Assembly: GCA_964598395.1 (NCBI GenBank)
Contig: CAZRBW010000003.1
Location: 27,972 to 91,971, forward strand
DNA: 64,000 nucleotides
Reading direction: 5' to 3'
DNA from: an uncultured Roseivirgaceae bacterium
GTDB lineage: Bacteria; Bacteroidota; Bacteroidia; Cytophagales; Cyclobacteriaceae
Shown: positions 1 through 63,800 of the stretch, piece after piece
Numbering within the stretch: position 1 is the stretch's first letter
How the letters are laid out: each line of letters opens with the position of its first letter
The notes under the pieces: generated by a model
Database searches by the model: none
Seen by the model: the letters and a program-made list of their open reading frames with translations, nothing else
Told to the model about the DNA's origin: nothing
Made by a program: the position numbers and the translations under genes

Positions 1-312
1 CTTTCTTTTTATGATAAGATAAGTGAACAATCCTCAAAGAGAAAATGGAATTCACATGCTAATCGATCAAAACCCGTGTCATACCGACTATCTATCGGTA
101 GAATAAAGAAAACAAATACACAGCCTTTTTGGCTGGTCTTAACTTGGCTCAGATAAGCGAGTTCTCCTTAATTTTCGCTTGCTTTCTATCCTCCCGCAAA
201 TCTTCAATGCATTGCAATTCGAGTGCACAATAACCCTAATTTTATTGCTTTTCATTTTTAGATATGAAATTTGTCTTTATCTTATTGAAAATAAATAAGC
301 TTTTACTAAACT

Positions 313-1161
313 ATGAATTTCGAGGAAGCAGAATTTCTAGCATTAAAAAATAGACAAGAGTTTATTAGCGCTGCTAGCAAAAAAAACATTGATATAAGTA
401 ACGCCATCAATAAGCTAAAATACGAAACCGTACTTACCCAATTACAAACCGAGCTTGTGGCATTGCAACAGTGGATTCACCAAAATAAAATGCGGGTGGT
501 GGTGATATTTGAAGGGAGGGATGCGGCTGGTAAGGGTGGTTCGATAAAGCGATTTACCGAGCATCTAAATCCTCGATATTCTAATAGAATAGCCCTGCCA
601 AAGCCTACCGAAATTGAAAGAGGCCAATGGTATTTTCGTAGGTATATAAAAGAATTGCCAAACCCTGGGGAAATTGTGTTCTTTGATAGGAGCTGGTATA
701 ATCGAGCTGTAGTAGAGCCTGTAATGGGTTTTTGCAATGCAAAGGAATACAATCAATTTATGGTTCAAGTGCCTGAATTTGAGCATATGTTACACGAAGA
801 TGGTGTAAAAGTTATCAAATTTTGGTTTTCGATTTCCAAAGACGAACAGAAGAATCGGTTTACAGCAAGGCTGAAAAGTCCACTGAAAAGATGGAAGTAC
901 AGTCCTGTGGATATGAAAGGACAAGAATTGTGGGAAAGCTACACCAAATACAAAGAATTAATGTTCAGCCGAACCCACACCAATTATAGTCCATGGATTA
1001 TCGTGAAAACGAATGATAAAAAGCAGGCTCGACTTGAGAGTATGCGGTATGTATTGTCTCAATTCGATTTTCCATTGAGTGCAAAATCGTCTGTTTCTAT
1101 CTTTCCCGATCCTAATATAATCATGCGATATCATCGTAGTGCCGACCAAATAGATATATAA
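313..1161 (+). CDS. ppk2: Polyphosphate kinase 2 (PPK2) family protein, copy 1
   Basis: 282-aa ORF with the P-loop-like motif FEGRDAAGKGG and the FDRSWYNR motif typical of single-domain PPK2 polyphosphate:nucleotide phosphotransferases. Confidence 0.9.
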   Translation: MNFEEAEFLALKNRQEFISAASKKNIDISNAINKLKYETVLTQLQTELVALQQWIHQNKMRVVVIFEGRDAAGKGGSIKRFTEHLNPRYSNRIALPKPTEIERGQWYFRRYIKELPNPGEIVFFDRSWYNRAVVEPVMGFCNAKEYNQFMVQVPEFEHMLHEDGVKVIKFWFSISKDEQKNRFTARLKSPLKRWKYSPVDMKGQELWESYTKYKELMFSRTHTNYSPWIIVKTNDKKQARLESMRYVLSQFDFPLSAKSSVSIFPDPNIIMRYHRSADQIDI

Positions 1162-1167
1162 GTTGCT

Positions 1168-2318: not shown

Positions 2319-2325
2319 AATTTAC

Positions 2326-3021: not shown

Positions 3022-3753
3022 ATGGATAATATTTATCAACAAATATTCACGATACGAGCTTCTGAAATAGATCAACAAAAGCGATTGAGAATAGATGCAT
3101 TTGCTGCCCAATTGCAAGAAGTAGCATGGGAGCATGCCAATGTTTTGAATGTAGGCAAGCAATTTTTTGAAGAAAATAGATTTTGGGTATTGTCTCGCTT
3201 GCAAATTAAAGTAAATAGATTGCCAACATGGGGTGAAGAAGTTATACTAAAAACATGGCCAAAAGGAATTGATAAGCTTTTTGCGTTACGGGATTTTGAA
3301 ATGAAAACGCGGGAGGGAGAAGTTCTTTTAAGTGCCACTTCGGCTTGGCTGATAATGAATAGAACATCCCGCCGTCCAATCCGCCCAGATGAAATAATAA
3401 GTAGGCTAAAACCAATAGCAAATGTAGAAGCTATAGCAGGTACGGCGCCAAAAATTGAAAGTGCCCAAACAACCTCCCGCCATATTTGCACACGAACGGC
3501 TCGAGCATCCGATTTGGATATGAACGGTCATGTAAACAACGTTGCCTACCTCCGCTGGGCTTTAGATGGAGCAGCAGAATTGAGCGCTATAGAAGCTATG
3601 TCTTTTTCCGAAATATCAATAAATTATCAATCAGAAAGCTTTTTACTTGAAGAAATAAGTCTTTCAATTGCTTCTGAATCAAATCATTCATGTATAATGA
3701 CGGGTATTTCGAACCGTGACCAAAGAAAAGTATTTACGGTAAGGTTAAATTGA
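3022..3753 (+). CDS. Acyl-ACP thioesterase family protein
   Basis: 243-aa ORF with a double hot-dog layout and FatA/FatB-like motifs (IRASEID..., DLDMNGHVNNVAYLRW). Confidence 0.8.
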   Translation: MDNIYQQIFTIRASEIDQQKRLRIDAFAAQLQEVAWEHANVLNVGKQFFEENRFWVLSRLQIKVNRLPTWGEEVILKTWPKGIDKLFALRDFEMKTREGEVLLSATSAWLIMNRTSRRPIRPDEIISRLKPIANVEAIAGTAPKIESAQTTSRHICTRTARASDLDMNGHVNNVAYLRWALDGAAELSAIEAMSFSEISINYQSESFLLEEISLSIASESNHSCIMTGISNRDQRKVFTVRLN

Positions 3754-8305: not shown

Positions 8306-9325
8306 ATGAGCTCGATATATTTTTTTTCTAAAACCCATCAATCAATGCAATCGCTAAGAAAATCAATCAGGAATATTTTGAATAAATCAAGTCTAATTTC
8401 CTTTCTATTGATTGTAGGTTTTATTGGATTATTATTTCCAATCGAATTAAGTGCTCAAAAAATTGACAGAGAGCAATTGCTCAAAGATATACAAATACTA
8501 TCTGCCGACGATATGGAAGGTCGCAAGGCTGGAACAGCGGGAGGAGAAAAAGCAAGACAATACTTGATTGAACGCTTTAGAGGCAATCATATTTTGTCCT
8601 ACGAGGGAGGTTACGAGCAACAGTTCAGCTTCAACACATTTCGTGCGAACGAGCGCTTTGATAATAATGTGAATTTGATTGGCTACATCGAAGGTGAGAT
8701 TGAGGACATTATAGTAGTATCTGCACATTATGACCACATAGGCTTTGCAGAAGATAAAATTTATAATGGCGCAGATGACAATGCTTCTGGTGTTTCAGCA
8801 ATGTTAGCAATTGCGGCTTACTTCAAGGAAAATAAGCCAAGGCATACCATAGTATTTGCGGCATTTGATGCGGAGGAGCAAGGTAAAAAAGGAGCGATAT
8901 ATTTCATATCCAAGCCACCCGAGCAATTGCGAAAAGGGCTAATCCGTCTCAACATCAATATGGATATGCTTTCGCAAAATGATAAAAACGAACTTTATGC
9001 GTCTGGTACATTTCACAATCCTTGGCTTAAGCCGATTTTAGAAGAAGTTGCGACTCCAGCAAATTTTACCTTACAATTTGGCCACGATAGGCCAGAGCAG
9101 GGTGCCGACGATTGGACAAATTCATCCGATCATGGCCCATTCCATAAGGAAGGTATTCCATTCATTTATTTTGGCGTGGAGGATCATGCCAATTACCACC
9201 AAGCGACGGATACTTTTGAAAATATCCATCCAGACTTTTACTATAATGCTGCATCATTTGTGTTGGATGCAATTATTCGTTTGGATAAAGTGGACTTGAT
9301 GACGGCACCATCCTCCCGCGATTAA
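8306..9325 (+). CDS. M28 family metallopeptidase (aminopeptidase)
   Basis: 339-aa ORF with a signal/TM segment and Zn-ligand motifs SAHYDH, DDNASG and DAEEQG. The start may be at an internal Met. Confidence 0.85.
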   Translation: MSSIYFFSKTHQSMQSLRKSIRNILNKSSLISFLLIVGFIGLLFPIELSAQKIDREQLLKDIQILSADDMEGRKAGTAGGEKARQYLIERFRGNHILSYEGGYEQQFSFNTFRANERFDNNVNLIGYIEGEIEDIIVVSAHYDHIGFAEDKIYNGADDNASGVSAMLAIAAYFKENKPRHTIVFAAFDAEEQGKKGAIYFISKPPEQLRKGLIRLNINMDMLSQNDKNELYASGTFHNPWLKPILEEVATPANFTLQFGHDRPEQGADDWTNSSDHGPFHKEGIPFIYFGVEDHANYHQATDTFENIHPDFYYNAASFVLDAIIRLDKVDLMTAPSSRD

Positions 9326-10724: not shown

Positions 10725-11329
10725 GTCAGTTCAACCAAAGGCTAGGGAATATTGACATCTACTTGCTCGACCAAATCCTGAAAGGTCGATTTGTTGCTAG
10801 CATGAAAGTGCTAGATGCAGGTTGTGGAGAAGGCCGCAACTTAATTTGGTTTATGCAGCAGGGTTACGAAATCCACGCAATAGATCAGAATGAGAGTGCT
10901 TTGCAAATGCTCAAATACCAAATGCACAGTCTCCATAGGGAAGATTTGGTAGAGAATGTATATAAAATGGATCTTGCAGAAATGCTTTTTCCAGACAAGG
11001 CATTCAAAATAGTGATTTGCTCTGCAGTGCTTCATTTTGCAAATAATGAGCAGCATTTTGATGCCATGCTTAATGAACTCACTAGAGTAACGGCGGGAGG
11101 TGGTTATCTATTTATCAGAGCCACCACGACTAGAGGATTATCACCGGCTTCCTATCAAACTATTGGTAATGGCCGATTTTATTTGGCCGATGGCAGCGAG
11201 CGTTTTTTGATGACGGATGCACACATATCCAAACTACTAGCAATGGGTTGGGAAGCAGTAGAACCGATTAAATCTGTATTGGTAGAAGATTATCGAAGTA
11301 TGCTAGTGGCTATATTGCGAAGAAAGTAA
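10697..11329 (+). CDS. Class I SAM-dependent methyltransferase
   Basis: Motif I is VLDAGCGEGRN. 210 aa. Overlaps the patatin gene 3' end by 28 nt. Confidence 0.8.
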   Translation: MDSKQEGSVSQFNQRLGNIDIYLLDQILKGRFVASMKVLDAGCGEGRNLIWFMQQGYEIHAIDQNESALQMLKYQMHSLHREDLVENVYKMDLAEMLFPDKAFKIVICSAVLHFANNEQHFDAMLNELTRVTAGGGYLFIRATTTRGLSPASYQTIGNGRFYLADGSERFLMTDAHISKLLAMGWEAVEPIKSVLVEDYRSMLVAILRRK

Positions 11330-11340
11330 TGGTTGATTTT

Positions 11341-12003
11341 TTACTTGAGCAAGACCAATTTTCGTCTAGCAATTTTTATACTCCACATTCCTCTTAAGTC
11401 GCCCATTTCGTGGTTTAATGCATTGTCGTTTGGGTATTTCTCTTGCAGTGCTTCCAAGGTTTCTAATTGCACTTGGGTGTTCTCAATACCGTGGCAATTC
11501 AAGCAAAGCCCGTTTCCTATTACGATTGGCTTTGTATAGAGAATATAGTCGGAGCCAATTTTCTGCACATTATCGGTGAGTTCCAGCCCATTCTCCATAT
11601 TGTATTCATAAGCCTCAAGCAATGGTAGTTCAGATTCATTGGGTTGGTCTTGTGGGTTTCTCCATCTATTGCTTGCTCGTCTTACTTCCACATCATATTC
11701 TTCCGATACCGAATTCAATAGAGGTAAAGCATTTACATTACAATAGTCAATAGCGTTGGTTATTCCTCCCGCTTCTATGGCTTGCATCAACTCTTGGATC
11801 AAACTAGCTTGGGCACTGTCGGCCACTTTTCGTCCATATTCGAATGCTCGATCTATAATTTCACCGTCGCTAATTACCCTTATTTCTCTTTCATCCAATT
11901 CTTTAGCTACATCTTTGGTAATAAGTCCCTGCTGGCTTTCTGGATTTCCACAGCCAATTATTAGACATCCAATAGCAATTAAGGAGCAAATAGATTTATA
12001 CAT
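11341..12003 (-). CDS. DUF3365 (Tll0287-like) heme-c-binding lipoprotein
   Basis: Lipoprotein-type signal (LIIGC), a single CxxCH site (CLNCHG) near the C-terminus, and a size typical of DUF3365 proteins. Confidence 0.7.
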   Translation of the reverse strand: MYKSICSLIAIGCLIIGCGNPESQQGLITKDVAKELDEREIRVISDGEIIDRAFEYGRKVADSAQASLIQELMQAIEAGGITNAIDYCNVNALPLLNSVSEEYDVEVRRASNRWRNPQDQPNESELPLLEAYEYNMENGLELTDNVQKIGSDYILYTKPIVIGNGLCLNCHGIENTQVQLETLEALQEKYPNDNALNHEMGDLRGMWSIKIARRKLVLLK

Positions 12004-12086: not shown

Positions 12087-13160
12087 ATGTTAGATAAGCT
12101 CGAAGCCATAAAAAATAGATTTGAAGAAGTTGCCGAATTCTTGGTAGATCCCAATGTAATGAGCGATGTGAAACGTTACACACAGCTCAACAAAGAGTAT
12201 AAAGATCTTGACAAGATTGTAACTAAATACCATGAGTACAAGGATGTGCTTGAAGGTATAAAAAACTGCAAGCAAATACTTGAAAAAGAGAAGGATCCAG
12301 ATTTTAGAGAAATGGCTAAGGAGGAATTGGATTTACTTTTGCCCAAAAAGGATGAGCTGGAAGAGGTGATGCGGCAAATGATGATTCCAAAGGATCCAAA
12401 TGATAGTAAAAATGCCATTTTAGAAATTCGTGCAGGAACGGGTGGAGATGAAGCAGGGATATTTGCTGGGGATTTATTCAGGATGTATCAACGATTTGCA
12501 GAAAAAATGGGATGGAGATTGAATGTGATGGATTTCACAGAAGGCTCATCTGGAGGATATAAGGAGATTGTTTGCGAGATTTCTGGCGAAGATGTTTATG
12601 GTAAAATGAAATATGAATCGGGAGTGCATAGAGTGCAACGTGTGCCTGCTACCGAAACTCAAGGTCGAGTTCATACTTCTGCAGCGACTGTTGCAGTACT
12701 ACCCGAAATGGAAGAAGTAGAAGTAAACATCGATATGAATGATGTGAGAAAAGATACTTTCTGTTCTTCTGGGCCAGGAGGTCAGTCAGTGAATACCACT
12801 TACTCCGCTGTGCGACTTACACATGGGCCAACTGGTTTGGTAGTGTCGTGTCAGGATGAAAAATCTCAGATAAAAAACTTCGAGAAGGCCCTCAAAGTAT
12901 TGCGCTCAAGGATTTACGAATTGGAGCTGAAAAAGCACAATGATGCTGTAGGCGCTCAAAGAAACTCTATGATCGGTAGCGGCGATAGAGCAGATAAAAT
13001 AAGAACGTATAATTATCCTCAAGGAAGAGTTACAGATCACCGCATCGGATATACTGTTTATAATTTACCAGTAGTAATGGAGGGAGAAATTGCCGAATTT
13101 ATCCAGCAATTACGACTAGCCGAAAATGCGGAGAAGCTAAAAGCGGGAGGTGGTGCCTAA
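12087..13160 (+). CDS. prfA: Peptide chain release factor 1
   Basis: Has the PAT tripeptide anticodon (RVPATETQGR) and the GGQ motif (SGPGGQSVN). 357 aa. Confidence 0.95.
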   Translation: MLDKLEAIKNRFEEVAEFLVDPNVMSDVKRYTQLNKEYKDLDKIVTKYHEYKDVLEGIKNCKQILEKEKDPDFREMAKEELDLLLPKKDELEEVMRQMMIPKDPNDSKNAILEIRAGTGGDEAGIFAGDLFRMYQRFAEKMGWRLNVMDFTEGSSGGYKEIVCEISGEDVYGKMKYESGVHRVQRVPATETQGRVHTSAATVAVLPEMEEVEVNIDMNDVRKDTFCSSGPGGQSVNTTYSAVRLTHGPTGLVVSCQDEKSQIKNFEKALKVLRSRIYELELKKHNDAVGAQRNSMIGSGDRADKIRTYNYPQGRVTDHRIGYTVYNLPVVMEGEIAEFIQQLRLAENAEKLKAGGGA

Positions 13161-18087: not shown

Positions 18088-18112
18088 GTTAGAAATTTTT
18101 AGGTGAAACATT

Positions 18113-18235: not shown

Positions 18236-18240
18236 TGCTG

Positions 18241-48011: not shown

Positions 48012-48398
48012 ATGCGGTTAAAGAACATTAGTTTGCCCTATAGTATTCAGATTTTTAAAGCTCTTTCAGAAGAAGCAAGAGTTCGTATAATCAATTTGTT
48101 GGCAAATAATAAGGAAATGTGCATTACTGATTTGGAGTTAGTTCTTGGTTTTACACAAACCAAAACCTCCCGCCACTTGACCTTCTTGAAAAATGCAGGA
48201 ATTGTAAATAGCAAAAGAGTTGATAAATGGATTTTCTATTACATCAAGGAAGAAGTATCTGAAATTTTAAGGCAAATTTTCGTCTTTATCCAAAAAGATC
48301 CACAACTGATCAAAGATCAAGAAATTTTCAAGGTGTTGTACTCAAATAGAGAACTTGCCCTCAACCAAATTGAAACGCGCAAATGGCAAGGTGATTAG
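48012..48398 (+). CDS. ArsR/SmtB family transcriptional regulator
   Basis: 128 aa with a winged HTH (RVRIINLL...EMCITDLELVLGFTQTKTSRHLTFLKNAGIV). Confidence 0.8.
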   Translation: MRLKNISLPYSIQIFKALSEEARVRIINLLANNKEMCITDLELVLGFTQTKTSRHLTFLKNAGIVNSKRVDKWIFYYIKEEVSEILRQIFVFIQKDPQLIKDQEIFKVLYSNRELALNQIETRKWQGD

Positions 48399-49261: not shown

Positions 49262-50893
49262 ATGTCAGTAGGCTTTTTCAACGTACCAAAACCTTATAAC
49301 GAACCTATAAAAAGCTATGCTCCTGGAAGTCCAGAAAGAGCATCTCTACAAGCGGCTCTTAAGGAAGCTCGTAGCAAAAAAATAGATATCCCGATGGTAA
49401 TTGGGGGGCAGGAAATATTCACCGATAAAAAAGTGAATATTAGACCTCCTCATGATCATCAACATATACTAGGCACCTTCAGCGAAGGAGATGCAGACCA
49501 TGTAAATCAGGCAATAAATGCTGCGCTAGGAGCTCGTGAAGCTTGGGCGGCAATGGCTTGGGAACATAGAGCAAGTATCTTCTTAAAAGCTGCAGAGCTG
49601 ATTGCTGGTCCATACAGGGACAGGCTGAATGCTGCTACCATGCTAGGCCAGTCCAAAAATGCTTTTCAAGCTGAGATCGATGCTGCTTGTGAAATCATCG
49701 ATTTCCTAAGATTCAACGTGCAATACATGACAGAAATCTACGCACAGCAACCAATATCCTCACCGGGTGTATGGAACCGCGTAGAGCAGAGAGGGCTAGA
49801 AGGTTTTATATTTGCCTTAACACCATTCAATTTTACAGCCATTGCAGGCAACTTGCCAACATCGTGCGCTATGATGGGCAATGTGGTTGTTTGGAAACCA
49901 GCCTACACACAAATTTATTCAGCCAATGTGCTTATGGAAATTTTCCGTGAAGCAGGCGTACCAGATGGCGTAATCAACTTGGTATATGTAGATGGCCCAA
50001 CTACTGGAGACATTGTATTCAAGCATCCAGATTTTGCAGGTATCCATTTTACAGGTAGTACTGGCGTATTCCAAACTATCTGGAAAACCATTGGCAACAA
50101 TATCCATGCTTACAAAACCTACCCGCGTATAGTTGGCGAAACTGGCGGTAAGGATTTCATAATGGTGCACAAGACTGCAAATGCCAAAGCAGTAGCTACT
50201 GCCATGTCAAGAGGCGCATTTGAATATCAAGGGCAAAAATGCTCTGCTGCCTCTAGAGCTTATATTCCATCAAATCTTTGGAATGAAGTGAAAGGTTACG
50301 TGCAAGAAGATTTGGCAAGTATGAAGATGGGAGGAACAGAAGATTTCGGTAATTTTATTAATGCTGTAATTGATGAAAAATCCTTCGATAAAATTGCTAA
50401 ATACATTGATGACGCAAAAGCAAATCCAATGGTGGAAGTAATAGCGGGAGGTAATTACGATAAATCTAAAGGTTACTTCATTGAGCCCACAGTATTGCTA
50501 ACTAAAGATCCGATGTATGTTACTATGTGCGAAGAGATCTTCGGTCCAGTATTGACGGTTTATGTATATCAAGCTGAAAATTTTGAGGAAACGCTAGAAT
50601 TACTCGATTCTACAAGTCCATATGCATTGACTGGAGCGATATTCTCTCAAGATAGATATGCGATTGAATTGGCAACAAAGAGACTAAACCATGCTGCAGG
50701 TAATTTCTACATAAATGATAAGCCAACAGGAGCAGTTGTAGGTCAGCAGCCATTTGGTGGATCTAGAGCTTCAGGCACTAATGACAAAGCAGGCTCTATG
50801 ATCAACCTATTGCGTTGGGTGAGTCCGCGTACAATTAAGGAGACACTAGTTTCTGCTACAGATTATCGATATCCATTTTTGGGAGAAGAATAA
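49262..50893 (+). CDS. pruA: L-glutamate gamma-semialdehyde (1-pyrroline-5-carboxylate) dehydrogenase
   Basis: 543-aa ALDH-superfamily protein with ETGGKD and the catalytic Cys region GQKCSAAS. Confidence 0.9.
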   Translation: MSVGFFNVPKPYNEPIKSYAPGSPERASLQAALKEARSKKIDIPMVIGGQEIFTDKKVNIRPPHDHQHILGTFSEGDADHVNQAINAALGAREAWAAMAWEHRASIFLKAAELIAGPYRDRLNAATMLGQSKNAFQAEIDAACEIIDFLRFNVQYMTEIYAQQPISSPGVWNRVEQRGLEGFIFALTPFNFTAIAGNLPTSCAMMGNVVVWKPAYTQIYSANVLMEIFREAGVPDGVINLVYVDGPTTGDIVFKHPDFAGIHFTGSTGVFQTIWKTIGNNIHAYKTYPRIVGETGGKDFIMVHKTANAKAVATAMSRGAFEYQGQKCSAASRAYIPSNLWNEVKGYVQEDLASMKMGGTEDFGNFINAVIDEKSFDKIAKYIDDAKANPMVEVIAGGNYDKSKGYFIEPTVLLTKDPMYVTMCEEIFGPVLTVYVYQAENFEETLELLDSTSPYALTGAIFSQDRYAIELATKRLNHAAGNFYINDKPTGAVVGQQPFGGSRASGTNDKAGSMINLLRWVSPRTIKETLVSATDYRYPFLGEE

Positions 50894-52167: not shown

Positions 52168-52356
52168 ATGTTAAATTTTTTACGAAATTAGGGATTGAGG
52201 AGGTATTTTTTACTCTATTATTCATTTTAATTCAATAGAGGCAATTTTTGCAGACGACAATTTCCCTCCCGCTTTGTTTTTTTGCTCAAATTGAAAATAG
52301 AAAAGCGCTTACCATAAATATGATAAACGCTTTCTCAACCATCTAACACCTATTTT

Positions 52357-53658: not shown

Positions 53659-54516
53659 TCATTCGGTTGAATCCATAAAATCCAGAATCCATTTATACGC
53701 CTTATTTGGTGTGTAAATGAATTGGACAATCATGGGTTTATGTTTTTTTCCTTTTTGGAGATAGTAGTTCGGGTTTGGGTTATACTTTTGATACTCTTCC
53801 AAAAAGCGGGTGGTTGTTAGTTCGATTCCTGGTAGTGTCTTTTCGCCCATCAGGATGATCATTGGTGTGGTATTTTTATCTAAATAATAATAAGGAGAAG
53901 TATCTTTCCATACTTGTGGGTTTTCTGTAAATGCCTCAAGGTAAATATTCCCAGAAGGATAATTCATTTGATTCAAAAACCAGTACATATCGAGTCCTGC
54001 AGCATCAATCAATACAGTGCCTTTTATTGGATTTTCTACATTAAGACTATCGAAATAGACATCTCGAACGGAAATCAAACTAGCCAAATGACCTCCCGCC
54101 GAATGACCCGAAACGAATATCCTATCAGGATTGCCACCATAATTCTGAATGTTATCATGCACCCATTGCACAGCTTGGGATGAGGCTTTGGCCATATCAT
54201 GTACTTGATATTCGGGACTCAGTGGATAGTCAATAATTACCGTCACAATTCCCTTTCGTGCGAAGCGGCTTCCCAAGAAATTGTAAATATCCTTATTGCC
54301 CGAATTCCAACTTCCGCCATGGATAAAGATTAAGACGTCATTTTGACCATTGGATTTCTTCGGACTGAAGATATTTAGTTGCTTTTCGGGCAAGGAGCTC
54401 AAAAAGCCATTTTCCATGTAGGTAATGTCCTTGTACTTATTTACGCCTTTGAATGAGCAGGAAAGTGAAAGCAGTACAATTCCTGTAAGTGGTAAAAGCT
54501 TGATTAATGTTTTCAA
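53659..54516 (-). CDS. Alpha/beta hydrolase (esterase/lipase type)
   Basis: Has the HGGSW oxyanion motif and the GHSAGG nucleophile elbow. Lipoprotein-like signal. Confidence 0.8.
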   Translation of the reverse strand: MKTLIKLLPLTGIVLLSLSCSFKGVNKYKDITYMENGFLSSLPEKQLNIFSPKKSNGQNDVLIFIHGGSWNSGNKDIYNFLGSRFARKGIVTVIIDYPLSPEYQVHDMAKASSQAVQWVHDNIQNYGGNPDRIFVSGHSAGGHLASLISVRDVYFDSLNVENPIKGTVLIDAAGLDMYWFLNQMNYPSGNIYLEAFTENPQVWKDTSPYYYLDKNTTPMIILMGEKTLPGIELTTTRFLEEYQKYNPNPNYYLQKGKKHKPMIVQFIYTPNKAYKWILDFMDSTE

Positions 54517-54665: not shown

Positions 54666-56984
<2,319 letters not shown>

Positions 56985-57656: not shown

Positions 57657-60600
57657 ATGAAACGATTAACCTTACTGCTTTTTACCCTCTTGATTTCCAC
57701 CTCTATATACAGCCAATCTGGTCGAGTGGTAATTGATGAAAATAGGGAAGGTATGAAGCTGCTTGTGAATGGAGAACCATTTATGGTAAATGGCATGAAC
57801 TGGGATTATTTCCCAATCGGTACCAACTTTTCCTATAGCTTATGGAATCAGCCAGATGACTTTATAATGAAGGCGCTGGATGATGAAATGTCCCTGCTGA
57901 AAAATATGGGTGTAAATACGATTAGAGTTTACACGGGTATTCAGAGAAAATGGATTCAGTATATATATGAAAAGCATGGTATTTACACGATGTTAAATCA
58001 CTCATTTGGTAGATACGGACTTACTTTAAATGGCACATGGGCACCTAATACCGATTATGCTGATCCAAGAGTAAGAGAGGTGTTGTTGCGGGAGGTTACT
58101 GAAATGGTACAGGAGTTTAGAGGCACACCTGGCCTGCTATTGTATCTGCTAGGTAATGAAAACAACTACGGATTGTTTTGGGATGGAGCAGAAACTGAAG
58201 ATATACCTGTAGAGGATAGACAATCAACCATCAGAGCAGAATCAATGTACAAGCTTTTCAATGAAGCTACACTTGCTATGAAAGCGGTGGATTCGTCAAA
58301 TCCAATCGCTATATGTAATGGTGATCTACTCTTTTTAGATCTGATTGCTGAAGAATGTAAAGACATAGATATACTTGGTATTAACGTTTACCGTGGCATT
58401 TCATTTACTGATATGTTTGATAGAGTGAAGAATGAGTTTGGTAAACCTGTACTTCTTACTGAATTTGGTAGTGATGCTTTCAATGCGCTCACAAATGAAG
58501 AAGATCAACAATCTCAAGCAATTTATAATCTTGCCAACTGGAAAGAAATATATGAAAATGCAGCCGGTTTAGGTAAAGCTGGAAATTCGCTTGGTGGTTT
58601 CACATTTCAATTTAGTGATGGCTGGTGGAAATATGGCCAGACAACAAATTTAAGTGTACATGACAACAATGCTTCATGGTCGAATGGAGGGTATCAATTC
58701 GACTATGTTGAGGGCGAAAATAATATGAATGAAGAGTGGTTTGGGATTGCTGCTAAAGGACCAACCAACGCAATGGGCTTTTATCAACTTTATCCCCGTA
58801 CTGCTTATTATGTATTGAAAGAAGCCCATCAGGTTAATCCTTATTCAAGTGGAACTTCGTTAGCTTCCATTCAAAGAGACTTCGCGCAAATTAAAATCAC
58901 TGATGCATTTTTAAGAGCTAGAGGAGATAAGGCTGCACTTCAAGGAGATCAATTAAGTAAAATCAGTTTGAGCAGACTTAGTGCTCAATTTTCCACATTC
59001 AATACGGGAGGTAGTTTAATCACGACACCAAGTTCAGCGATCCCTGGAAGCAATGATTTTCCAAACCAATTGGGCTTCGACCACATGCAATCATTTTTTG
59101 TAGGTGTGCAGGCCAATCCAGCTCCTGAGTTTAGAGCCAATGTTGAATTCAATATTTTGGGCAATGTAGCTCGCAACCCAATAGATCAGATTTTCTACGA
59201 AAATAGAGGAAGGCCAGTAGAAGTTCGATCACCCAATGGCACCATTGAATTGCAGTCTGAAAATAGAGTTCAAGTATATCAGGCGAGCTATGAATGGAAT
59301 CATAAAATGTTCAATTTGAATGGATTCTATCGTACAGGTCATTACCATTGGGGCTACGAAGGAGATTTCTTCGGTCTCTATCCAGAAGCGAACTATGGCC
59401 CAATGATCGATATATATAATGGTATGGCACCATTTGGTATTGAGATGGAAGGGAAGAAACAATTAAAAGATTTTAAACTAGCATTCGGGCCAGAATTGTG
59501 GTGGGGAGCTAACCCAGCCTTTTTGTTAAAGTACAGAAAGGAACTAGGTAAGAGCACTACAGTAACTGGTATTTTCCATGAGGATTTACAGCAACGAGGT
59601 CTTTCAGAAAGTTCCTTTGCTATTCCTCAGCCGAAAACGAGAAGACTGAGTGTTCACTTGAATCAAGACCTTGGAAAATTTGGAATTGATCTTGGAGGTG
59701 TATGGGGTGGCCAACCTTTGCAGGGAAGGGTATTCCAAGCAGTGAGAGAGGAAAGTACTGGTATGGCAATTTATCAAGACCAAATCAGAGCTAAGGATAA
59801 CTTCGGCGGAAAAGCGAAATTAACTTACGAGGGAGGGAAATTCAATTGGTATGCACAATCGGCTGCTATGGGATTAGTTGCTCAAGGTGGCGCCGACCAA
59901 ACATTAACATTCACAGGCTGGAGACTAAAGGATAGCGGAAGTGGCAATCAATACAATTTCCTCTCTGGATTTACTTACAATGTAGGCAACCTTCAAATTG
60001 CGCCTAATTTCCTTTGGCAAAAGCCACTTGAAGGGCCGATTCCAACTACTATAGGAGGTGCGGCTCGCCCAAGAAATATTCTCGACGACCCATTCGTAGT
60101 TAGAAGTAATAGAGAACAAACAGCAGGAGAAATATTATTCACTTTTGACAAAACACCAGGCACTTACATGTACGATTGGGATAGTGACAGGACGGAAGAT
60201 TCTGAATTAGCTTTCAGTCTAGGTTTTGTATTTCGACACTTGCCAACAATCCAAGATGCTGCCATAGGTATCTTACCGGATGGACGTACCTTATTTGCTT
60301 TTCCAGGCTCCGCTCCAGCGCAAGACTTATGGGAAGTGAATGCAAGAGTAGTTTCTAAACTGAGTAAGGATTTTGGATGGATTGCAAACATGTATATAGG
60401 GGATGCGCAAGCTAATGGTAGCGATGCACGTACCATCCAAAGACAAGGAATGGATTTGAGAATGATCTATAAAACGGTAAAGCTTAATTCATTCGTAAGA
60501 ATAAACGACTGGGGGCCATATGATTACCACCGAGATTTCAACCTTACTTTCCCTTCGCAATTTATGACAGATATTTCGGTAGCACTTGGCAAGCCAGATT

Positions 60601-60794
60601 GGTTCGACATGCCAGATACTCGTATTGGTCTGAGAGGTACTTACCGTACACTTGATAGATTTTCGCCTCGCTATAACCCAACTCAAACAATTGATGGCGC
60701 TGGCAATATGGTTCCTGATCCTACAGCTATTGGCTTTGGCAATGGTAATGAATGGGAAATCAGGACTTACATTTTCATTAACATCGTTAAATAA
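57657..60794 (+). CDS. Secreted clan GH-A (TIM-barrel, GH2-like) glycoside-hydrolase-like protein fused to a ~610-aa C-terminal region of unknown family
   Basis: Starts at MKRLTLLLFTLLISTSIYSQ (signal peptide); the track ORF starts 30 nt earlier. It has GNE-type acid/base (LLGNENNYG) and TEFG-type nucleophile (VLLTEFGSDAF) motifs spaced as in (beta/alpha)8 hydrolases. The C-terminal half has no motif I recognise. Confidence 0.7.
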   Translation: MKRLTLLLFTLLISTSIYSQSGRVVIDENREGMKLLVNGEPFMVNGMNWDYFPIGTNFSYSLWNQPDDFIMKALDDEMSLLKNMGVNTIRVYTGIQRKWIQYIYEKHGIYTMLNHSFGRYGLTLNGTWAPNTDYADPRVREVLLREVTEMVQEFRGTPGLLLYLLGNENNYGLFWDGAETEDIPVEDRQSTIRAESMYKLFNEATLAMKAVDSSNPIAICNGDLLFLDLIAEECKDIDILGINVYRGISFTDMFDRVKNEFGKPVLLTEFGSDAFNALTNEEDQQSQAIYNLANWKEIYENAAGLGKAGNSLGGFTFQFSDGWWKYGQTTNLSVHDNNASWSNGGYQFDYVEGENNMNEEWFGIAAKGPTNAMGFYQLYPRTAYYVLKEAHQVNPYSSGTSLASIQRDFAQIKITDAFLRARGDKAALQGDQLSKISLSRLSAQFSTFNTGGSLITTPSSAIPGSNDFPNQLGFDHMQSFFVGVQANPAPEFRANVEFNILGNVARNPIDQIFYENRGRPVEVRSPNGTIELQSENRVQVYQASYEWNHKMFNLNGFYRTGHYHWGYEGDFFGLYPEANYGPMIDIYNGMAPFGIEMEGKKQLKDFKLAFGPELWWGANPAFLLKYRKELGKSTTVTGIFHEDLQQRGLSESSFAIPQPKTRRLSVHLNQDLGKFGIDLGGVWGGQPLQGRVFQAVREESTGMAIYQDQIRAKDNFGGKAKLTYEGGKFNWYAQSAAMGLVAQGGADQTLTFTGWRLKDSGSGNQYNFLSGFTYNVGNLQIAPNFLWQKPLEGPIPTTIGGAARPRNILDDPFVVRSNREQTAGEILFTFDKTPGTYMYDWDSDRTEDSELAFSLGFVFRHLPTIQDAAIGILPDGRTLFAFPGSAPAQDLWEVNARVVSKLSKDFGWIANMYIGDAQANGSDARTIQRQGMDLRMIYKTVKLNSFVRINDWGPYDYHRDFNLTFPSQFMTDISVALGKPDWFDMPDTRIGLRGTYRTLDRFSPRYNPTQTIDGAGNMVPDPTAIGFGNGNEWEIRTYIFINIVK

Positions 60795-60805
60795 AATATT
60801 TTAGG

Positions 60806-63800
60806 ATGAGAACTTATAATAAAAATAACTGGAGGAGGGATTTTTCCATTTGTCTGCTTCTGGCACTTTCTCTTGGTTGCATTAGAGATATAGATGAGCT
60901 GGAGCCAGCCACATTCTCTACCAATCCAGCGGTATTTTTGGATGGCTTTAGTGCAGGCTTAAATTATGCAGCCTTTGGTGGATCAGTACCCACTGCATTT
61001 AACGTGGATACAGAGGTAACTTTCACTACTACATCCCAAGCTTCCATGCGATTTGAAGTGCCCGATGCAAATGACCCGAGAGGAGCATATGCGGGAGGTA
61101 CATTCTTTACCGATGTGCCAAGAGATTTATCTGAATATGACGCGCTTACTTTCTGGGCAAAAGCTAGTAAGGCAGCGACCATAGATGTAGTCGGTTTTGG
61201 CAATGATTTGGGTGAATCAAAATATCAAGTCGCACTAAATGGAATGGCCGTTAATACCAATTGGCAGAAATACTACATTCCAATCCCGGATCCAGCCAAA
61301 TTATCGGCTGAAAGAGGAATGTTTTATTATAGTGAAGGACCCGAAGAGGGTAGAGGCTATACCTTTTGGATTGATGATTTGAAATTTGAAAAGCTGGGCA
61401 CAATTTCTCAGCCACAACACAGTATTATTAGTGGTAATACTCAAGTTGAAACTTCATTTATTGGTGCAAATAGAAGGATAGATGGCTTACAATCATCATT
61501 TAATTTACCTAATGGTATAAACCAGATACTAAACATTGCTCCAAGCTATTTTGTATTCTCATCTTCCAACGAATCAATTGCTTCAGTAGATGCTGCAGGA
61601 AATGTTTCGGTAGTGGGTGGACCTGGGAATGCCATAATTTCTGCCACTTTGGGCAGTGTTCAAACTAGAGGTTCTTTGACTATTCAATCTATTGGCCAAT
61701 TCGTTGCTGCGCCAGTTCCAACTCACCCAGCAGATAGAGTAATCTCACTTTTCAGTGAAGCTTATACTAATGTGCCAGTAGATTTTTTTAATGGATATTG
61801 GGAGCCTTTCCAGACTACATTGTCTGCAGATTTCGAAGTCCAAGGAAATCGAATTTTGAATTACTTTAATTTCAATTTTGTAGGCATTCAATTTAGCTCA
61901 CCCACTATTAATGCAACTGATATGACTCACTTGCATGTGGATATTTTCATACCTAATGCGTTGAGTGGAAATGCCCGCTTAACTCTTGAAATGGTAGATA
62001 ATTTAGTGGAACCAGCAGGTATATTTACAACAAATATTCAGGCATCCCAATCTCAAGAATGGATAAGTCTGGATATCCCGCTTTCTAATTTTGCAGGACT
62101 TAAAAGCAGAGCAAATCTCTATCAATTAATCTTTGTGGATGCATCTGGAAATATCCCAGGCTTCTATGCAGATAATATTTATTTCTACAAAGCTGAAGTT
62201 CCTCCTGCTGTTTTATCGGAGCCAGCTCCTACACCAACGAGGAACGCGGCAGGTGTGATATCCATGTTTAGTGATGCTTATCCAAATGTTACGGTGGATA
62301 CTTGGAGAACAGATTGGTCCTCAGCAATCTTAGAAGATATCTCCATTCAAGGAGATGCAATTAAGAAGTATTCAGCACTTGATTTCGTAGGAATTGAAAC
62401 AGTAAGCAATCAAATCAATATCGAGAACATGACGCATCTTCACGTAGATGTATGGTCACCAAACTTCACTAATTTTGGAATTAAGTTAGTTGATTTTGGC
62501 CCTGATGGTGGATTTGCGGGAGGTGATGATACAGAGCATCAAGTGGATTTTGCTGGATTACCAACAGGCGAATGGGTGAGTTTGGATATTCCTTTAAGTA
62601 ATTTCACAGGGTTGACTACTAGAAAGAATTTAGCTCAAATGATATTGGTTTCTCAGCCATCCGGTGGTGCCATTGTTCATATTGATAATATGTATTTCTA
62701 TGATGAAAATGCTGCAACTACTCCTGTTGGGTTAACTGTACCGGCACCAACACCAACAAGACCTGCTTCTGGTGTGATATCCATGTTTAGCGATGCCTAC
62801 CCTAACGTAACAGTTGATACCTGGCGTACAGATTGGTCGTCGGCTGTATTAGAAGATATCTTGGTGCAAGGCAATGCTGTCAAAAAGTATTCTTCTTTAG
62901 ATTTTGTGGGTATTGAAACCGTAAGCAATCAAATCAATATCGAGAATATGACGCACATGCACATGGATGTGTGGTCTGCTGATTTCACCAATTTCGCGAT
63001 TAAGTTGGTGGACTTTGGCCCTGATGGAGGCTTTGGTGGAGGTGATGATACGGAGCATCAAATTAATTTTGCCACCCCAGCACAAGGTCGTTGGGTAAGT
63101 TTGGATATTCCTTTGAGCAACTTCACAAACCTAACCACCCGCAAAAATTTGGCTCAAATGATTCTCGTTGGTCAACCTTCTGGTGCTACCATTGTGCATA
63201 TCGACAATGTTTATTTTTACGATGCAAATGCAGGAAATGGATCAACAGGATTATCAACACCAGCACCTGCCCCAACCCAGCCAGCAGCTGATGTAATATC
63301 AATGTTTAGCGATAGTTACACTAATGTAACTGTAAATACCTGGCGAACAGACTGGTCATCCGCTACATTAGAAGAGTTATCTATACAAGGTAATGCAGTT
63401 AAAAAATACTCCTCATTAGATTTTGTGGGTATTGAGACTGTGAGTAACCAAATAAACATTGAGGAAATGACGCATTTCCGGATGGATGTATGGTCTGCCG
63501 ATTTCACCAGCTTTGGGATAAAGCTGGTTGATTTTGGTCCTGATGGCAGCTTTGGTGGAGGTGATGATACAGAGCATCAAGTAAATGTTGCCACACCTGC
63601 AAAGAGCCGTTGGGTAAGCTTAGATATACCATTGAGTAGTTTCGCAGGCCTAACCACCCGCAAGAATTTGGCTCAAATGATTCTTGTGGCACAGCCATCT
63701 GGTGCAGCAACTGTTTATGTTGACAACGTCTTTTTCTACAAAACCAGTGGAAATGGAGGAGGCGGATCTCAAACTGGTACAGCCATATTTGAGGAATCAT

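What the first reader, a model, noticed from the sequence alone, without database searches (positions are those of the whole stretch)
190..62523. Sharply bounded octamer GCGGGAGG/CCTCCCGC is massively over-represented, at least 40 copies or about one per 1.6 kb
By eye I find exact copies starting at 190, 3309, 3473, 8537, 9312, 11093, 11765, 13143, 14423, 15219, 15937, 16025, 19350, 22446, 25458, 27422, 27767, 31821, 32290, 32398, 33453, 34753, 34779, 35976, 39766, 40664, 41009, 41443, 44215, 44340, 45244, 48166, 48942, 50444, 52265, 54092, 56080, 58088, 61091 and 62516. A zero-order estimate at ~40% G+C (0.2^7 x 0.3 x 64000 x 2 strands) predicts about 0.5 copies. On the plus strand the orientation is balanced, 19 GCGGGAGG versus 21 CCTCCCGC. 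Thirty-seven copies lie inside CDSs and three are intergenic (190, 27767, 52265). Within genes the motif occurs in all three frames in the sense orientation: Ala-Gly-Gly (GCG GGA GGN) 16 times, x-Arg-Glu (NCG GGA...read as CGG GAG) 7 times, and x-Gly-Arg 3 times. It occurs 11 times in antisense orientation, read as Ser/Thr-Ser-Arg, Pro-Pro-Ala or Leu-Pro. No single peptide therefore explains it, which points to selection or drive at the DNA level. Flanks are not conserved, so it is not part of a longer MITE or REP element. The exception is the base after GCGGGAGG, which is T in 25, A in 10, G in 5 and never C. One-mismatch variants are rare (for example ACGGGAGG 3 times and GCGGGTGG 2 times), as expected for a specifically maintained word. 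Density, strand symmetry and frame-independence resemble DNA uptake signal sequences (Neisseria DUS, Pasteurellaceae USS) or highly iterated words such as cyanobacterial HIP1. I know of no such element described for Bacteroidota. The word also shares the GCnGGnGG skeleton of E. coli Chi and the GCGG core of Firmicute AddAB Chi sites, and it contains a Shine-Dalgarno-like GGAGG.
Basis: partly seen in the sequence, partly recalled or inferred. Interest (0 to 1): 0.85.

Follow-up and report, generated by a model that had tools for sequence, protein, structure and literature searches.

The report
Hyper-abundant genomic word in Peijinzhouia
An eight-letter DNA word (GCGGGAGG) occurs about 80 times more often than chance in this Cytophagales bacterium and its closest relatives, is kept intact by selection on the DNA itself, and most resembles the "self-recognition" uptake signals known so far only from Neisseria and Haemophilus relatives.

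Summary
GCGGGAGG/CCTCCCGC occurs 40 times in 64 kb (19 +, 21 -). Expectation is about 0.5 under dinucleotide or Markov nulls and 1.3 under synonymous-codon shuffles. It is the most frequent 8-mer in the window, and no other word comes close.

The constraint acts on DNA, not protein. Sixteen of 24 Ala-Gly-Gly tripeptides use GCG-GGA-GGN although GCG makes up only 11% of Ala codons. Four-fold degenerate positions inside copies are identical in five genomes (77-95% nucleotide identity) 83% of the time, against 20% elsewhere.

Copies are orthologous, turn over by point mutation and have no conserved long flanks, only a weak extension (A at -4, T at +1). They show no strand skew. Density continues for 10 kb beyond the window in a relative.

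The word is confined to a genus-level clade (Peijinzhouia, Cytophagales). Relatives at 74-77% SecDF identity have 0-1 copy per 18-23 kb.

The best explanation is a DNA-uptake or transformation signal that accumulated by molecular drive (confidence about 0.45; function untested). Chi- or KOPS-type polar motifs, REP/MITE elements, peptide or codon effects and Shine-Dalgarno-like roles are disfavoured or refuted. I found no comparable element described for Bacteroidota.

The parts
190..197 (-). motif copy, intergenic, upstream of PPK2 gene (313-1161)
3309..3316 (+). motif copy in acyl-ACP thioesterase gene, sense, read T-R-E-G
3473..3480 (-). motif copy in acyl-ACP thioesterase gene, antisense (T-S-R)
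8537..8544 (+). motif copy in peptidase M28 gene, sense, Ala-Gly-Gly
9312..9319 (-). motif copy in peptidase M28 gene, antisense (S-S-R)
11093..11100 (+). motif copy in methyltransferase gene, sense, Ala-Gly-Gly
11765..11772 (-). motif copy in Tll0287-like gene (- strand), sense, Ala-Gly-Gly
13143..13150 (+). motif copy in peptide chain release factor 1 gene, sense, Ala-Gly-Gly; conserved in all 5 genomes
14423..14430 (+). motif copy in amidase gene, sense (L-R-E-V); conserved in all 5 genomes
15219..15226 (-). motif copy in hypothetical gene 14916-15527 (-), sense (G-G-R); conserved in all 5 genomes
15937..15944 (+). motif copy in TonB-dependent receptor gene (-), antisense (P-S-R); conserved in all 5 genomes
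16025..16032 (-). motif copy in TonB-dependent receptor gene (-), sense, Ala-Gly-Gly; conserved in all 5 genomes
22446..22453 (+). motif copy in IMP dehydrogenase gene, sense, Ala-Gly-Gly; conserved in all 5 genomes
25458..25465 (-). motif copy in SecDF gene (-), sense (S-G-R); all 8 outgroups have R-G/S-R here, so it is linked to an amino-acid replacement
27422..27429 (-). motif copy in Ham1-like NTP pyrophosphatase gene (-), sense, Ala-Gly-Gly; conserved in all 5 genomes; the three outgroups that align here have A-G-S or A-G-D
27767..27774 (+). motif copy, intergenic between Ham1-like and FKBP genes; conserved in all 5 genomes
31821..31828 (+). motif copy in amidohydrolase/dihydroorotase-like gene (-), antisense (T-S-R)
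32290..32297 (-). motif copy in amidohydrolase gene (-), sense, Ala-Gly-Gly
32398..32405 (-). motif copy in amidohydrolase gene (-), sense, Ala-Gly-Gly
33453..33460 (+). motif copy in DEAD-box helicase gene, sense, Ala-Gly-Gly; conserved in all 5 genomes
34753..34760 (-). motif copy in ALAD (hemB) gene (-), sense (S-G-R); left arm of an inverted pair with 34779
34779..34786 (+). motif copy in ALAD gene (-), antisense (L-P); right arm of the inverted pair (18-nt spacer)
35976..35983 (-). motif copy in Na/sulfate-citrate symporter gene, antisense (P-P-A)
39766..39773 (+). motif copy in Xaa-Pro aminopeptidase gene, sense (E-R-E-V)
40664..40671 (-). motif copy in glycosyltransferase gene, antisense (P-P-A)
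41009..41016 (-). motif copy in glycosyltransferase gene, antisense (P-P-A)
41443..41450 (+). motif copy in glycosyltransferase gene, sense (V-R-E-V)
44215..44222 (+). motif copy in nitroreductase gene, sense (V-R-E-V)
44340..44347 (-). motif copy in nitroreductase gene, antisense (S-S-R)
45244..45251 (-). motif copy in PolB-like 3'-5' exonuclease gene, antisense (P-P-A)
48166..48173 (-). motif copy in ArsR-family regulator gene, antisense (T-S-R)
48942..48949 (+). motif copy in HAD hydrolase gene, sense, Ala-Gly-Gly (A-G-G also in outgroup L009)
50444..50451 (+). motif copy in glutamate-semialdehyde dehydrogenase gene, sense, Ala-Gly-Gly (A-G-G also in outgroup L009)
52265..52272 (-). motif copy, intergenic between cyclophilin and YceI genes
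54092..54099 (-). motif copy in esterase (BD-FAE) gene (-), sense, Ala-Gly-Gly
56080..56087 (-). motif copy in catalase-peroxidase KatG gene (-), sense, Ala-Gly-Gly
58088..58095 (+). motif copy in large GH2-like gene 57627-60794, sense (L-R-E-V)
61091..61098 (+). motif copy in Ig-like surface protein gene (60806->64000), sense, Ala-Gly-Gly
62516..62523 (+). motif copy in Ig-like surface protein gene, sense, Ala-Gly-Gly

Best explanation
GCGGGAGG, with a weak extension of roughly A-A-N-N-GCGGGAGG-T, is a genome-wide, lineage-specific DNA word of the genus-level clade around Peijinzhouia (Cytophagales, Bacteroidota). It most likely works as a DNA uptake or transformation-enhancing signal, like the USS of Pasteurellaceae and the DUS of Neisseriaceae. 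The proposed mechanism has three steps. First, a component of the cell's DNA-uptake or transformation pathway prefers fragments that carry the word. Second, such fragments recombine into the chromosome more often than their word-free alleles. Third, point mutations that create or restore the word therefore spread by molecular drive, and mutations that destroy it are lost.

Shown here: extreme over-representation, a constraint acting on DNA rather than protein, orthologous conservation with point-mutation turnover, both orientations without skew, near-uniform scatter through housekeeping genes, restriction to one young clade, and measurable distortion of the proteome.
For: 1. Abundance. There are 40 copies per 64 kb, against about 0.5 expected from shuffles or Markov nulls and 1.3 from synonymous-codon shuffles. 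Density is one per 1.6 kb, the same order as I recall for USS and DUS. No other word in the window behaves this way.

2. DNA-level maintenance. Sixteen of 24 A-G-G tripeptides are encoded GCGGGAGGN, although GCG is 11% of Ala codons. Seven of 25 x-R-E sites use CGG, which is 4% of Arg codons. Four-fold degenerate third positions inside copies are identical in 5 genomes at 15 of 18 sites. The figure is 20% for 1899 other such sites (P=2e-8). Nine of 12 window copies are intact in both L001 and L002, against 11% of all 8-mers (P=4e-7).

3. Spread by substitution, not transposition. Non-shared sites differ by single bases. One site in L020 was built from a sequence at least 3 changes away. Flanks are unrelated.

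4. No polarity. Orientation is 19+/21- and interleaved. The 26:11 sense excess equals the coding-strand compositional expectation of 68-78%. Three of 40 copies are intergenic, matching the 7.9% non-coding fraction. Spacing is slightly more even than random (CV 0.79, P=0.07).

5. Core plus weak flanks, as in USS and DUS. One-mismatch forms are mildly enriched (28 against 13), and position 6 is the most tolerant. A drive acting on near-matches predicts this (PMC1939737).

6. Lineage specificity. Density is 0.5-0.8 per kb in all loci of at least 7 kb whose SecDF is at least 91% identical, and in the P. sedimentorum and LMO-SS25 isolates. It is 0-1 copy per 18-23 kb in relatives at 74-77% SecDF identity, and 0-1 per locus (9-23 kb) in those at about 60%.

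7. Proteome imprint as reported for USS. A-G-G is 3.5x over composition in the clade against 1.8x in outgroups. P-P-A is 3.2x in the window against 0.75x in outgroups. There is a clade-specific R-to-S replacement in SecDF at a copy.

8. Plausibility in the phylum. Riemerella species are naturally competent, R. columbina prefers its own DNA, and uptake uses Bacteroidota-specific outer-membrane proteins (PMC7965970 and PMC8459023).

9. Mosaic identity and homoplasy among the relatives suggest frequent homologous exchange.
Against: There is no functional evidence of any kind. Competence has not been reported for Peijinzhouia, and the library holds no papers on it. I could not inspect the rest of the genome for comEC, comF, dprA, Riemerella-type uptake genes, pilus genes, methyltransferases or AddAB/RecBCD. 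The window itself holds only housekeeping genes. Only about 76 kb of one syntenic region was sampled in any genome, so 'genome-wide' is an extrapolation. I could not test whether mobile or foreign DNA in these genomes lacks the word. Every sequence signature listed would also arise from any other process that selects or drives a specific word symmetrically on both strands. The clade is much narrower than the families that carry DUS or USS.
Confidence: 0.45

Rival explanations
1. A HIP1-like word. The octamer contains the target of a resident DNA methyltransferase, or another modification or repair enzyme. It accumulates through a methylation and mismatch-repair ratchet, or because methylated copies protect or favour incoming DNA after entry. 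No uptake receptor reads the sequence.
For: It shares gross features with HIP1. It is an octamer, it spreads by substitution without indels, it is conserved at orthologous coding and non-coding sites, and it is somewhat evenly spaced. HIP1's effect on transformation depends on methylation (bioRxiv 10.64898/2026.06.24.733823). A repair-driven ratchet would equally preserve synonymous sites.
Against: The word is not palindromic, unlike all described HIPs. The six G-to-A and one C-to-T transition neighbours are not depleted overall (11 observed against 5.2 expected). A very-short-patch type repair ratchet would predict depletion, although the counts are small. No methyltransferase acting on DNA was found in the window. 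The one methyltransferase present is a TehB or small-molecule type. It is my general knowledge that asymmetric 8-bp methylation targets are unusual.
Confidence: 0.17
2. A Chi-like recombination hotspot or nuclease-attenuating self marker, recognised by AddAB or RecBCD.
For: It is a G-rich octamer. It is one mismatch from GCTGGAGG, which I recall as a Haemophilus Chi variant, and two from E. coli Chi GCTGGTGG. The commonest variant, GCGGGTGG, mirrors the A/T alternative at position 6. It begins with GCGG, like the Firmicute Chi cores I recall. A self marker of this kind would be conserved and lineage specific.
Against: There is no orientation bias. The split is 19:21 and interleaved across a window with net positive GC skew and 60% of coding bases on +. 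P=0.0017 for at most 21 of 40 on either strand if the skew were 75%. An 80-fold enrichment that overrides codon usage and amino-acid sequence is far beyond the few-fold excess I recall for known Chi sites. The word is absent from relatives at 74-77% SecDF identity, whereas to my knowledge Chi specificity usually changes slowly.
Confidence: 0.1
3. A binding site for an abundant chromosome-associated protein, such as a nucleoid-organising factor or a self-versus-foreign discriminating factor of a defence or SMC-like system. Such a protein would need sites every 1-2 kb on both strands.
For: Spacing is even-ish (CV 0.79, P=0.07). There is no polarity. The core-plus-weak-flank architecture is typical of a protein site. 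Sites are under purifying constraint.
Against: I know of no precedent for a nucleoid or defence protein imposing thousands of exact 8-mers inside coding sequence at the cost of codon and amino-acid changes. This explanation offers no process that would create sites directionally, for example the site in L020 that needed at least 3 changes. No candidate gene was identified.
Confidence: 0.1
4. No function. The word would be an artefact of composition, codon or peptide preference, or the core of a dispersed mobile repeat (REP or MITE).
For: The same octamer is the core of longer REP-like repeats in unrelated metagenome contigs (L061, L118, L135). The AGG reading frame dominates (16 of 37 copies in CDS).
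Against: The codon-preserving null expects 1.3 against 37 observed. All three sense frames, antisense and intergenic copies occur. Flanks are unrelated. Copies sit at orthologous positions without indels and change by point mutation. Synonymous positions are conserved.
Confidence: 0.01

Closest known systems
Pasteurellaceae uptake signal sequence (USS; Haemophilus influenzae core AAGTGCGGT)
   Same: Both have a density of about one per 1-2 kb, occur in both orientations and lie mostly inside genes in several reading frames. Both have a strong core with weaker flanks, mildly enriched one-mismatch forms, spread by point mutation and leave an imprint on peptide content (PMC1939737). The layout A-A-N-N-GCGG...T is even shared, which may be coincidence.
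   Different: The phylum, the word itself and the clade breadth differ (genus-level here, not family-wide). No uptake assay exists here. The uptake machinery is unknown: competence in Bacteroidota such as Riemerella uses non-pilus outer-membrane proteins (PMC8459023). Helically phased AT tracts were not seen.
Neisseriaceae DNA uptake sequence (DUS, ATGCCGTCTGAA, and its dialects; receptor ComP)
   Same: Both are hyper-abundant, lineage-specific 'watermarks'. The dialect-like restriction to one clade is similar.
   Different: As I recall, DUS is often found as intergenic inverted pairs at terminators. Here copies are 92% in CDS, in proportion to coding density, and there is only one close inverted pair, which lies inside a gene. 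No ComP-like pilin could be sought.
Cyanobacterial HIP1 (GCGATCGC)
   Same: Both are octamers that propagate by substitutions and are conserved in coding and non-coding DNA. Spacing is quasi-even. HIP1 is now itself proposed to enhance transformation.
   Different: HIP1 is palindromic, carries known methyltransferase targets and is phylum-wide. This word is asymmetric, has no known methyltransferase and is genus-restricted.
Chi sites (E. coli GCTGGTGG; Firmicute AGCGG-type)
   Same: Both are G-rich words of 5-8 bases. This word is one to two mismatches from proteobacterial Chi forms.
   Different: There is no replication-oriented skew, and the enrichment is one to two orders of magnitude higher.
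FtsK/SpoIIIE polar sequences (KOPS GGGNAGGG, SRS GAGAAGGG) and other architecture-imparting sequences
   Same: Both are G-rich octamers.
   Different: Those sequences are defined by extreme strand polarity. Here orientation is 19:21.
REP/MITE-type dispersed repeats
   Same: Both are multi-copy short sequences. Elsewhere the octamer does occur as the core of such repeats.
   Different: Here there are no conserved flanks, no hairpin unit, no indels at copies, and the copies lie inside housekeeping genes.

Membership tests
DNA uptake sequences (USS/DUS) | Short word hugely over-represented (about 1 per kb) across the chromosome | tested here: met
   There are 40 copies per 64 kb against about 0.5 expected. 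Density is the same in six related genomes and in 10 kb beyond the window. Only about 76 kb of any one genome was sampled.
DNA uptake sequences (USS/DUS) | Both orientations, no replichore polarity, inside and outside genes, spread by point mutation | tested here: met
DNA uptake sequences (USS/DUS) | Competent cells preferentially take up DNA carrying the word | not testable with these tools
   This needs uptake or transformation competition assays in isolates SYC-11 or LMO-SS25.
DNA uptake sequences (USS/DUS) | Genome encodes competence machinery (ComEC, DprA, ComF, an outer-membrane uptake system and a sequence-reading receptor) | not tested
   The window has none.
DNA uptake sequences (USS/DUS) | Word depleted in recently acquired or mobile DNA relative to core | not tested
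   There is no mobile element in the sampled region. Scans of viral contigs found no word-dense AT-rich phage, but host links are unknown.
Chi | Orientation bias with the direction of replication | tested here: not met
   Orientation is 19+/21-, interleaved. P=0.0017 under a 75% skew.
Chi | Recognition by RecBCD or AddAB, with attenuation of the nuclease | not testable with these tools
   This is a biochemical assay.
KOPS/SRS polar sequences | Strong strand polarity pointing to dif | tested here: not met
HIP-type highly iterated palindromes | Palindromic octamer containing a methyltransferase target | tested here: not met
   The reverse complement of GCGGGAGG is CCTCCCGC, so the word is not a palindrome. 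Methylation status is unknown.
HIP-type highly iterated palindromes | Hyper-abundance, spread by substitution, conservation at orthologous sites | tested here: met
REP/MITE | Longer conserved unit, usually intergenic, inserted as a block | tested here: not met
   Flanks are random apart from single-base preferences. 92% of copies are in CDS, and there are no indels at copies.
Shine-Dalgarno-like or RNA-level signal | Sense-strand specific, positioned relative to start codons or RNA features | tested here: not met
   Eleven copies are antisense. Copies lie at relative positions 0.05-0.99 within genes. The sense excess equals the compositional expectation.

The most novel reading that the evidence does not exclude
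GCGGGAGG is the first sequence-specific DNA uptake signal of the phylum Bacteroidota. It would have arisen recently in the Peijinzhouia lineage. It would imply a sequence-reading receptor in a Bacteroidota-type competence apparatus that may not depend on type IV pili. That would be an independent, third invention of self-DNA recognition during natural transformation, in bacteria that exist as cultured isolates and can be tested directly.
Probability: 0.4. Interest if true: 0.85.

Novelty: new variant of a known kind. Interest (0 to 1): 0.72.

Why it matters
To my knowledge, uptake-signal-type words are firmly established in only two proteobacterial families, and HIP1 of cyanobacteria is now debated as a third case. 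The origin and function of these words are long-standing questions: drive or selection, and how the receptor reads DNA. A young, genus-restricted, 80-fold enriched word has close relatives that lack it. That offers a natural before/after comparison for finding the responsible gene by phylogenetic profiling. It also allows the accumulation process to be dated. Cultured isolates exist (P. sedimentorum SYC-11 and strain LMO-SS25) in which uptake, methylation and recombination can be tested directly. If it is an uptake signal, it would give a handle on the poorly understood competence machinery of Bacteroidota. It would also give a practical way to improve genetic transformation of these marine polysaccharide degraders. 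Even if the function proves different, a process that rewrites codons and amino acids across housekeeping genes to install one word is of general interest for genome evolution.

Tried and rejected
1. High-order Markov nulls on unmasked sequence give 19-37 expected copies. I rejected these as circular, because 40 of 41 GCGGGAG and 40 of 43 CGGGAGG occurrences are the motif itself. Masked models give 0.4-0.5.

2. I scanned viral contigs for convergent motif pairs (GCGGGAGGT N1-30 ACCTCCCGC) to find word-dense phages of this clade. The 39 hits were almost all GC-rich chance hairpins, and none was an AT-rich, word-dense contig.

3. The same scan of metagenome contigs was meant to sample random genome regions of the clade. 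It was uninformative.

4. Look-ups of the window's own proteins, to walk along its genome, either found only short contigs or were not on record. Walking succeeded only in the 82%-identity relative.

5. The full-text search for the word returned only eukaryotic or primer contexts among the 20 top-ranked hits listed, of 1,113 in all. Searches for uptake sequences in Bacteroidota found only the Riemerella work, which reports A-rich k-mers at about 5-fold enrichment and no comparable word.

6. An RNA-level or Shine-Dalgarno-like role was rejected.

7. A codon or peptide explanation was rejected.

8. REP/MITE was rejected.

9. A test for depletion of transition neighbours, as a footprint of very-short-patch repair, was inconclusive at this sample size.

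Full report
**Observation**

An exact search finds GCGGGAGG 19 times on the + strand and 21 times on the - strand, 40 copies in 64,000 bases. It is the most frequent 8-mer in a window of 38.9% G+C. The next most frequent are A/T-rich words, or the motif's own overlapping extension, at no more than 26 copies.

Expected counts are far lower:
- 0.49 from dinucleotide-preserving shuffles (maximum 3);
- 0.13-0.88 for Markov orders 1-3;
- 0.12-0.51 for orders 1-5 when the model is estimated with the copies masked.

Unmasked orders 5-6 give 19-37. That is circular, because 40 of the 41 GCGGGAG and 40 of the 43 CGGGAGG occurrences are the motif itself. The same numbers show how sharply the word is bounded. 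After masking, no other 6- to 8-mer approaches this enrichment. The best remaining 8-mers are 6-10 copies against 0.4-1.5 expected, and one of them is the motif's own variant GCGGGTGG.

**The constraint is on DNA, not on protein**

I called 55 genes covering 92% of the window.
- 16 copies read Ala-Gly-Gly;
- 7 read x-Arg-Glu;
- 3 read x-Gly-Arg;
- 11 are antisense (Pro-Pro-Ala, Ser/Thr-Ser-Arg, Leu-Pro);
- 3 are intergenic.

Shuffling synonymous codons within each gene, which keeps every protein and each gene's codon usage, gives 1.28 copies (maximum 5 in 500 shuffles) against 37 observed in CDS.

Sixteen of the 24 Ala-Gly-Gly tripeptides in the window are spelled GCG-GGA-GGN, although GCG is only 10.9% of Ala codons. 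Seven of 25 x-Arg-Glu-[GVADE] sites use CGG, which is 4.3% of Arg codons.

The 26:11 excess of sense copies needs no RNA-level explanation. The purine-rich, G>C composition of the coding strand predicts 68-78% sense. The three intergenic copies (7.5%) match the non-coding fraction (7.9%).

**Anatomy of the word**

Long flanks are unrelated, so this is not a REP or MITE unit. There is, however, a weak extension seen across reading frames and orientations:
- A at -4 in 26 of 40 copies (P=4e-5 against background);
- no C at -3;
- G at -9 in 20 of 40 copies;
- T at +1 in 25 of 40 copies, with C never present.

The 24 one-mismatch neighbours total 28 copies against about 13 expected. Position 6 is the most tolerant: GCGGGTGG occurs 6 times, GCGGGCGG twice and GCGGGGGG twice, 10 against about 1 expected. 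Transition neighbours are not depleted (11 against 5.2).

Spacing averages 1,598 bp and is slightly more even than random (CV 0.79; P=0.07). Orientations are interleaved, with 26 runs against about 21 expected.

**Where it occurs**

The window carries ordinary chromosomal genes. They include SecDF, HtpG, KatG, RF-1, IMP dehydrogenase, Prc, Xaa-Pro aminopeptidase, HemB and a DEAD-box helicase. No competence, pilus, recombination-nuclease or DNA-methyltransferase genes are present.

A scan of GTDB species genomes with SecDF found two close relatives:
- 'Cytophagales bacterium SYC-11' (94% amino-acid identity; locus L001).
- A MAG labelled Cyclobacteriaceae (91%; locus L002).

Further relatives came from the protein collection: ENA contigs at 98%, a JGI contig at 92%, and the isolate 'Fulvivirgaceae bacterium LMO-SS25'. 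All their loci of 7 kb or more carry the word at 0.5-0.8 copies per kb in both orientations, and it is the commonest or joint-commonest G+C-rich 8-mer.

Relatives whose SecDF is 74-77% identical (L009-L012) have 0-1 copy per 18-23 kb. Those at about 60% identity (Imperialibacter and other Cytophagales, L003-L007) have 0-1 copy per locus of 9-23 kb. None of these shows an alternative hyper-abundant word.

In the JGI relative, which is 82% nucleotide-identical to the window, the 10 kb lying beyond the window's right end holds 6 copies, 3+ and 3-. So the word is not confined to the window. It is a property of a young, genus-level clade.

**Evolution of the copies**

In a five-genome alignment of about 23 kb (77-95% pairwise nucleotide identity), 9 of 21 sites carry the word in all five genomes. 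Most of the others are present in four.

Nine of the 12 window copies that align in both L001 and L002 are intact in both. Only 11% of all 8-mers, and 8% of G+C-rich 8-mers, are conserved this way (P=4e-7).

Four-fold degenerate third-codon positions inside copies are identical in all five genomes at 15 of 18 sites (83%). The figure for 1,899 other four-fold sites is 20% (P=2e-8).

Where genomes differ, they differ by single substitutions (GCGAGAGG, GCAGGAGG, GCGGGCGG, GCGGGAGA and others), never by indels. One copy in L020 stands where the other genomes have sequences at least three changes away. Several sites show homoplasy on the genome tree. Sliding-window identity is mosaic: in some 500-bp segments the window is closer to L001 than to its 95%-identical relative L016. 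This hints at homologous exchange, with the caveat that several of these sequences are metagenome assemblies.

The proteome is affected. Ala-Gly-Gly is 3.5-fold over compositional expectation in the clade and 1.8-fold in outgroups. Pro-Pro-Ala is 3.2-fold over expectation in the window (1.8-fold in the clade relatives) and 0.75-fold in outgroups. Permuted controls are at expectation. In SecDF the copy encodes Ser-Gly-Arg where all eight outgroups have Arg-Gly/Ser-Arg.

**Interpretation**

These signatures exclude a compositional, codon, peptide or mobile-repeat origin. They show a word that is created and preserved at the DNA level, symmetrically on both strands.

Polar motifs are disfavoured. 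Orientation is 19:21 over a window with net positive GC skew and 60% of coding bases on one strand. The probability of at most 21 of 40 on either strand is 0.0017 if the bias were the 75% I recall for E. coli Chi. KOPS and SRS motifs are more polar still. To my knowledge the 80-fold enrichment is also far above that of any Chi.

A Shine-Dalgarno-like role is excluded by the antisense copies and by positions spread throughout genes. From my own knowledge, Bacteroidota largely do not use Shine-Dalgarno pairing. That may be why a GGAGG-containing word is tolerated in sense orientation.

The only well-understood process known to produce thousands of unskewed, sharply defined, lineage-specific words inside genes is biased DNA uptake followed by recombination. 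This is the molecular-drive model developed for USS and DUS (PMC1939737). All its sequence-level predictions are met here:
- a core plus weak flanks;
- mildly enriched near-matches;
- birth by point mutation;
- orthologous persistence;
- proportional occupancy of coding DNA;
- proteome distortion;
- dialect-like restriction to one lineage.

Natural transformation exists in Bacteroidota. Riemerella species are naturally competent, and R. columbina prefers its own DNA. That work found no convincing uptake word, only A-rich k-mers at about 5-fold enrichment. Uptake there uses Bacteroidota-specific outer-membrane proteins (PMC7965970 and PMC8459023).

I therefore rank an uptake or transformation-enhancing signal first, at about 0.45. 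The rivals are:
- a HIP1-like methylation or repair-linked word (about 0.17). It is not palindromic and I saw no transition-neighbour depletion, but this cannot be excluded. HIP1 itself is now proposed to act in transformation;
- an unskewed Chi-like self marker (about 0.10). The word is one mismatch from GCTGGAGG, which I recall as a Haemophilus Chi variant;
- a binding site for an abundant chromosomal protein (about 0.10).

**What is shown and what is inferred**

Shown:
- abundance;
- DNA-level purifying constraint;
- mode of spread;
- absence of polarity;
- clade restriction;
- continuation beyond the window;
- effects on proteins.

Not shown:
- competence of these bacteria;
- any protein that reads the word;
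- methylation status;
- behaviour at genome scale (origin/terminus, mobile DNA).

I could not reach the rest of the genome.

**Novelty**

Full-text searches found no bacterial report of this word, no hyper-abundant uptake-type word in Bacteroidota, and no paper on Peijinzhouia. I classify it as a new variant of a known kind: an uptake-signal or HIP-type genomic word, in a new phylum, with a new sequence, and unusually young and narrow in distribution.

Cultured isolates exist, and close relatives lack the word. The responsible gene and the function are therefore directly testable.

Noticed in passing
window 18144-18240 (-), with genes 15637-18111, 18262-18771 and 18777-19385: A TPP riboswitch (Rfam RF00059, 60 bits) lies directly upstream of a TonB-dependent receptor gene. 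Next to it are a PnuC-like transporter gene and an AAA_28 (NadR-type kinase-like) gene. This looks like a riboswitch-controlled vitamin (thiamine) salvage cluster.
   Followed up: partly
window 313-1161 and 1168-1938 (+): Two tandem polyphosphate kinase 2 (PPK2) paralogues. The arrangement is conserved in the relative L180.
   Followed up: no
window 57627-64000; L183 6854-23150; L185 6855-22623: Two genes of about 1050-1150 aa (GH2-like and Ig-like/CBM11) open what in relatives is a beta-glucan (laminarin-type) utilisation cluster, with GH16, GH17, GH30 and MFS transporter genes. The word is as dense there as in housekeeping genes.
   Followed up: partly
window 54666-56936 (-); L185 6272-6855: The catalase-peroxidase gene katG is present in the window and in L183 but missing from the same position in strain LMO-SS25 (L185). 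This is a presence/absence polymorphism within the clade. The katG copies nevertheless carry the word (1 and 2 copies).
   Followed up: partly
five-genome alignment of window 12901-35950 with L016, L001, L020 and L002: Identity is mosaic. In some 500-bp segments the window is closer to L001 than to its 95%-identical relative L016. Motif presence/absence is homoplastic at several sites. This suggests homologous recombination between lineages, or chimeric metagenome assemblies.
   Followed up: partly
L061 (12 copies in 5.3 kb), L118, L135 (12 copies in 9.2 kb): In unrelated, more G+C-rich metagenome contigs the same octamer is the core of a longer conserved, often inverted repeat (for example CACCTGCGGGAGGT and GTTTCNTCACCYGCGGGAGGTTA). 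This is a REP-like element and a different phenomenon from the one in the window.
   Followed up: partly
window 34753-34786: There is one close inverted pair of copies (CCTCCCGC, 18 nt, GCGGGAGG) that could form an 8-bp stem. It lies inside the 5' part of the hemB (ALAD) gene, not at a terminator.
   Followed up: no
window, dispersed: GCGGGTGG, the position-6 variant of the word, occurs 6 times against about 0.8 expected. Together with the C and G variants at that position the count is 10 against about 1 expected, so the recognised pattern may be GCGGGNGG with a preference for A.
   Followed up: partly
L079 (3.5 kb of a 146-kb metagenome contig, 38% G+C): A different 8-mer, AAGGCACT/AGTGCCTT, occurs 11 times in 3.5 kb. 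It may be a tandem or dispersed repeat and was not examined.
   Followed up: no
window 7264-8271, 14916-15527, 26013-26387, 42211-42750: Four conserved genes have no Pfam match. Gene 19731-21056 has only weak TPR hits. Function is unknown. The hypothetical genes at 14916-15527 and 26013-26387, and the weak-TPR gene at 19731-21056, are syntenic in all clade genomes examined.
   Followed up: no
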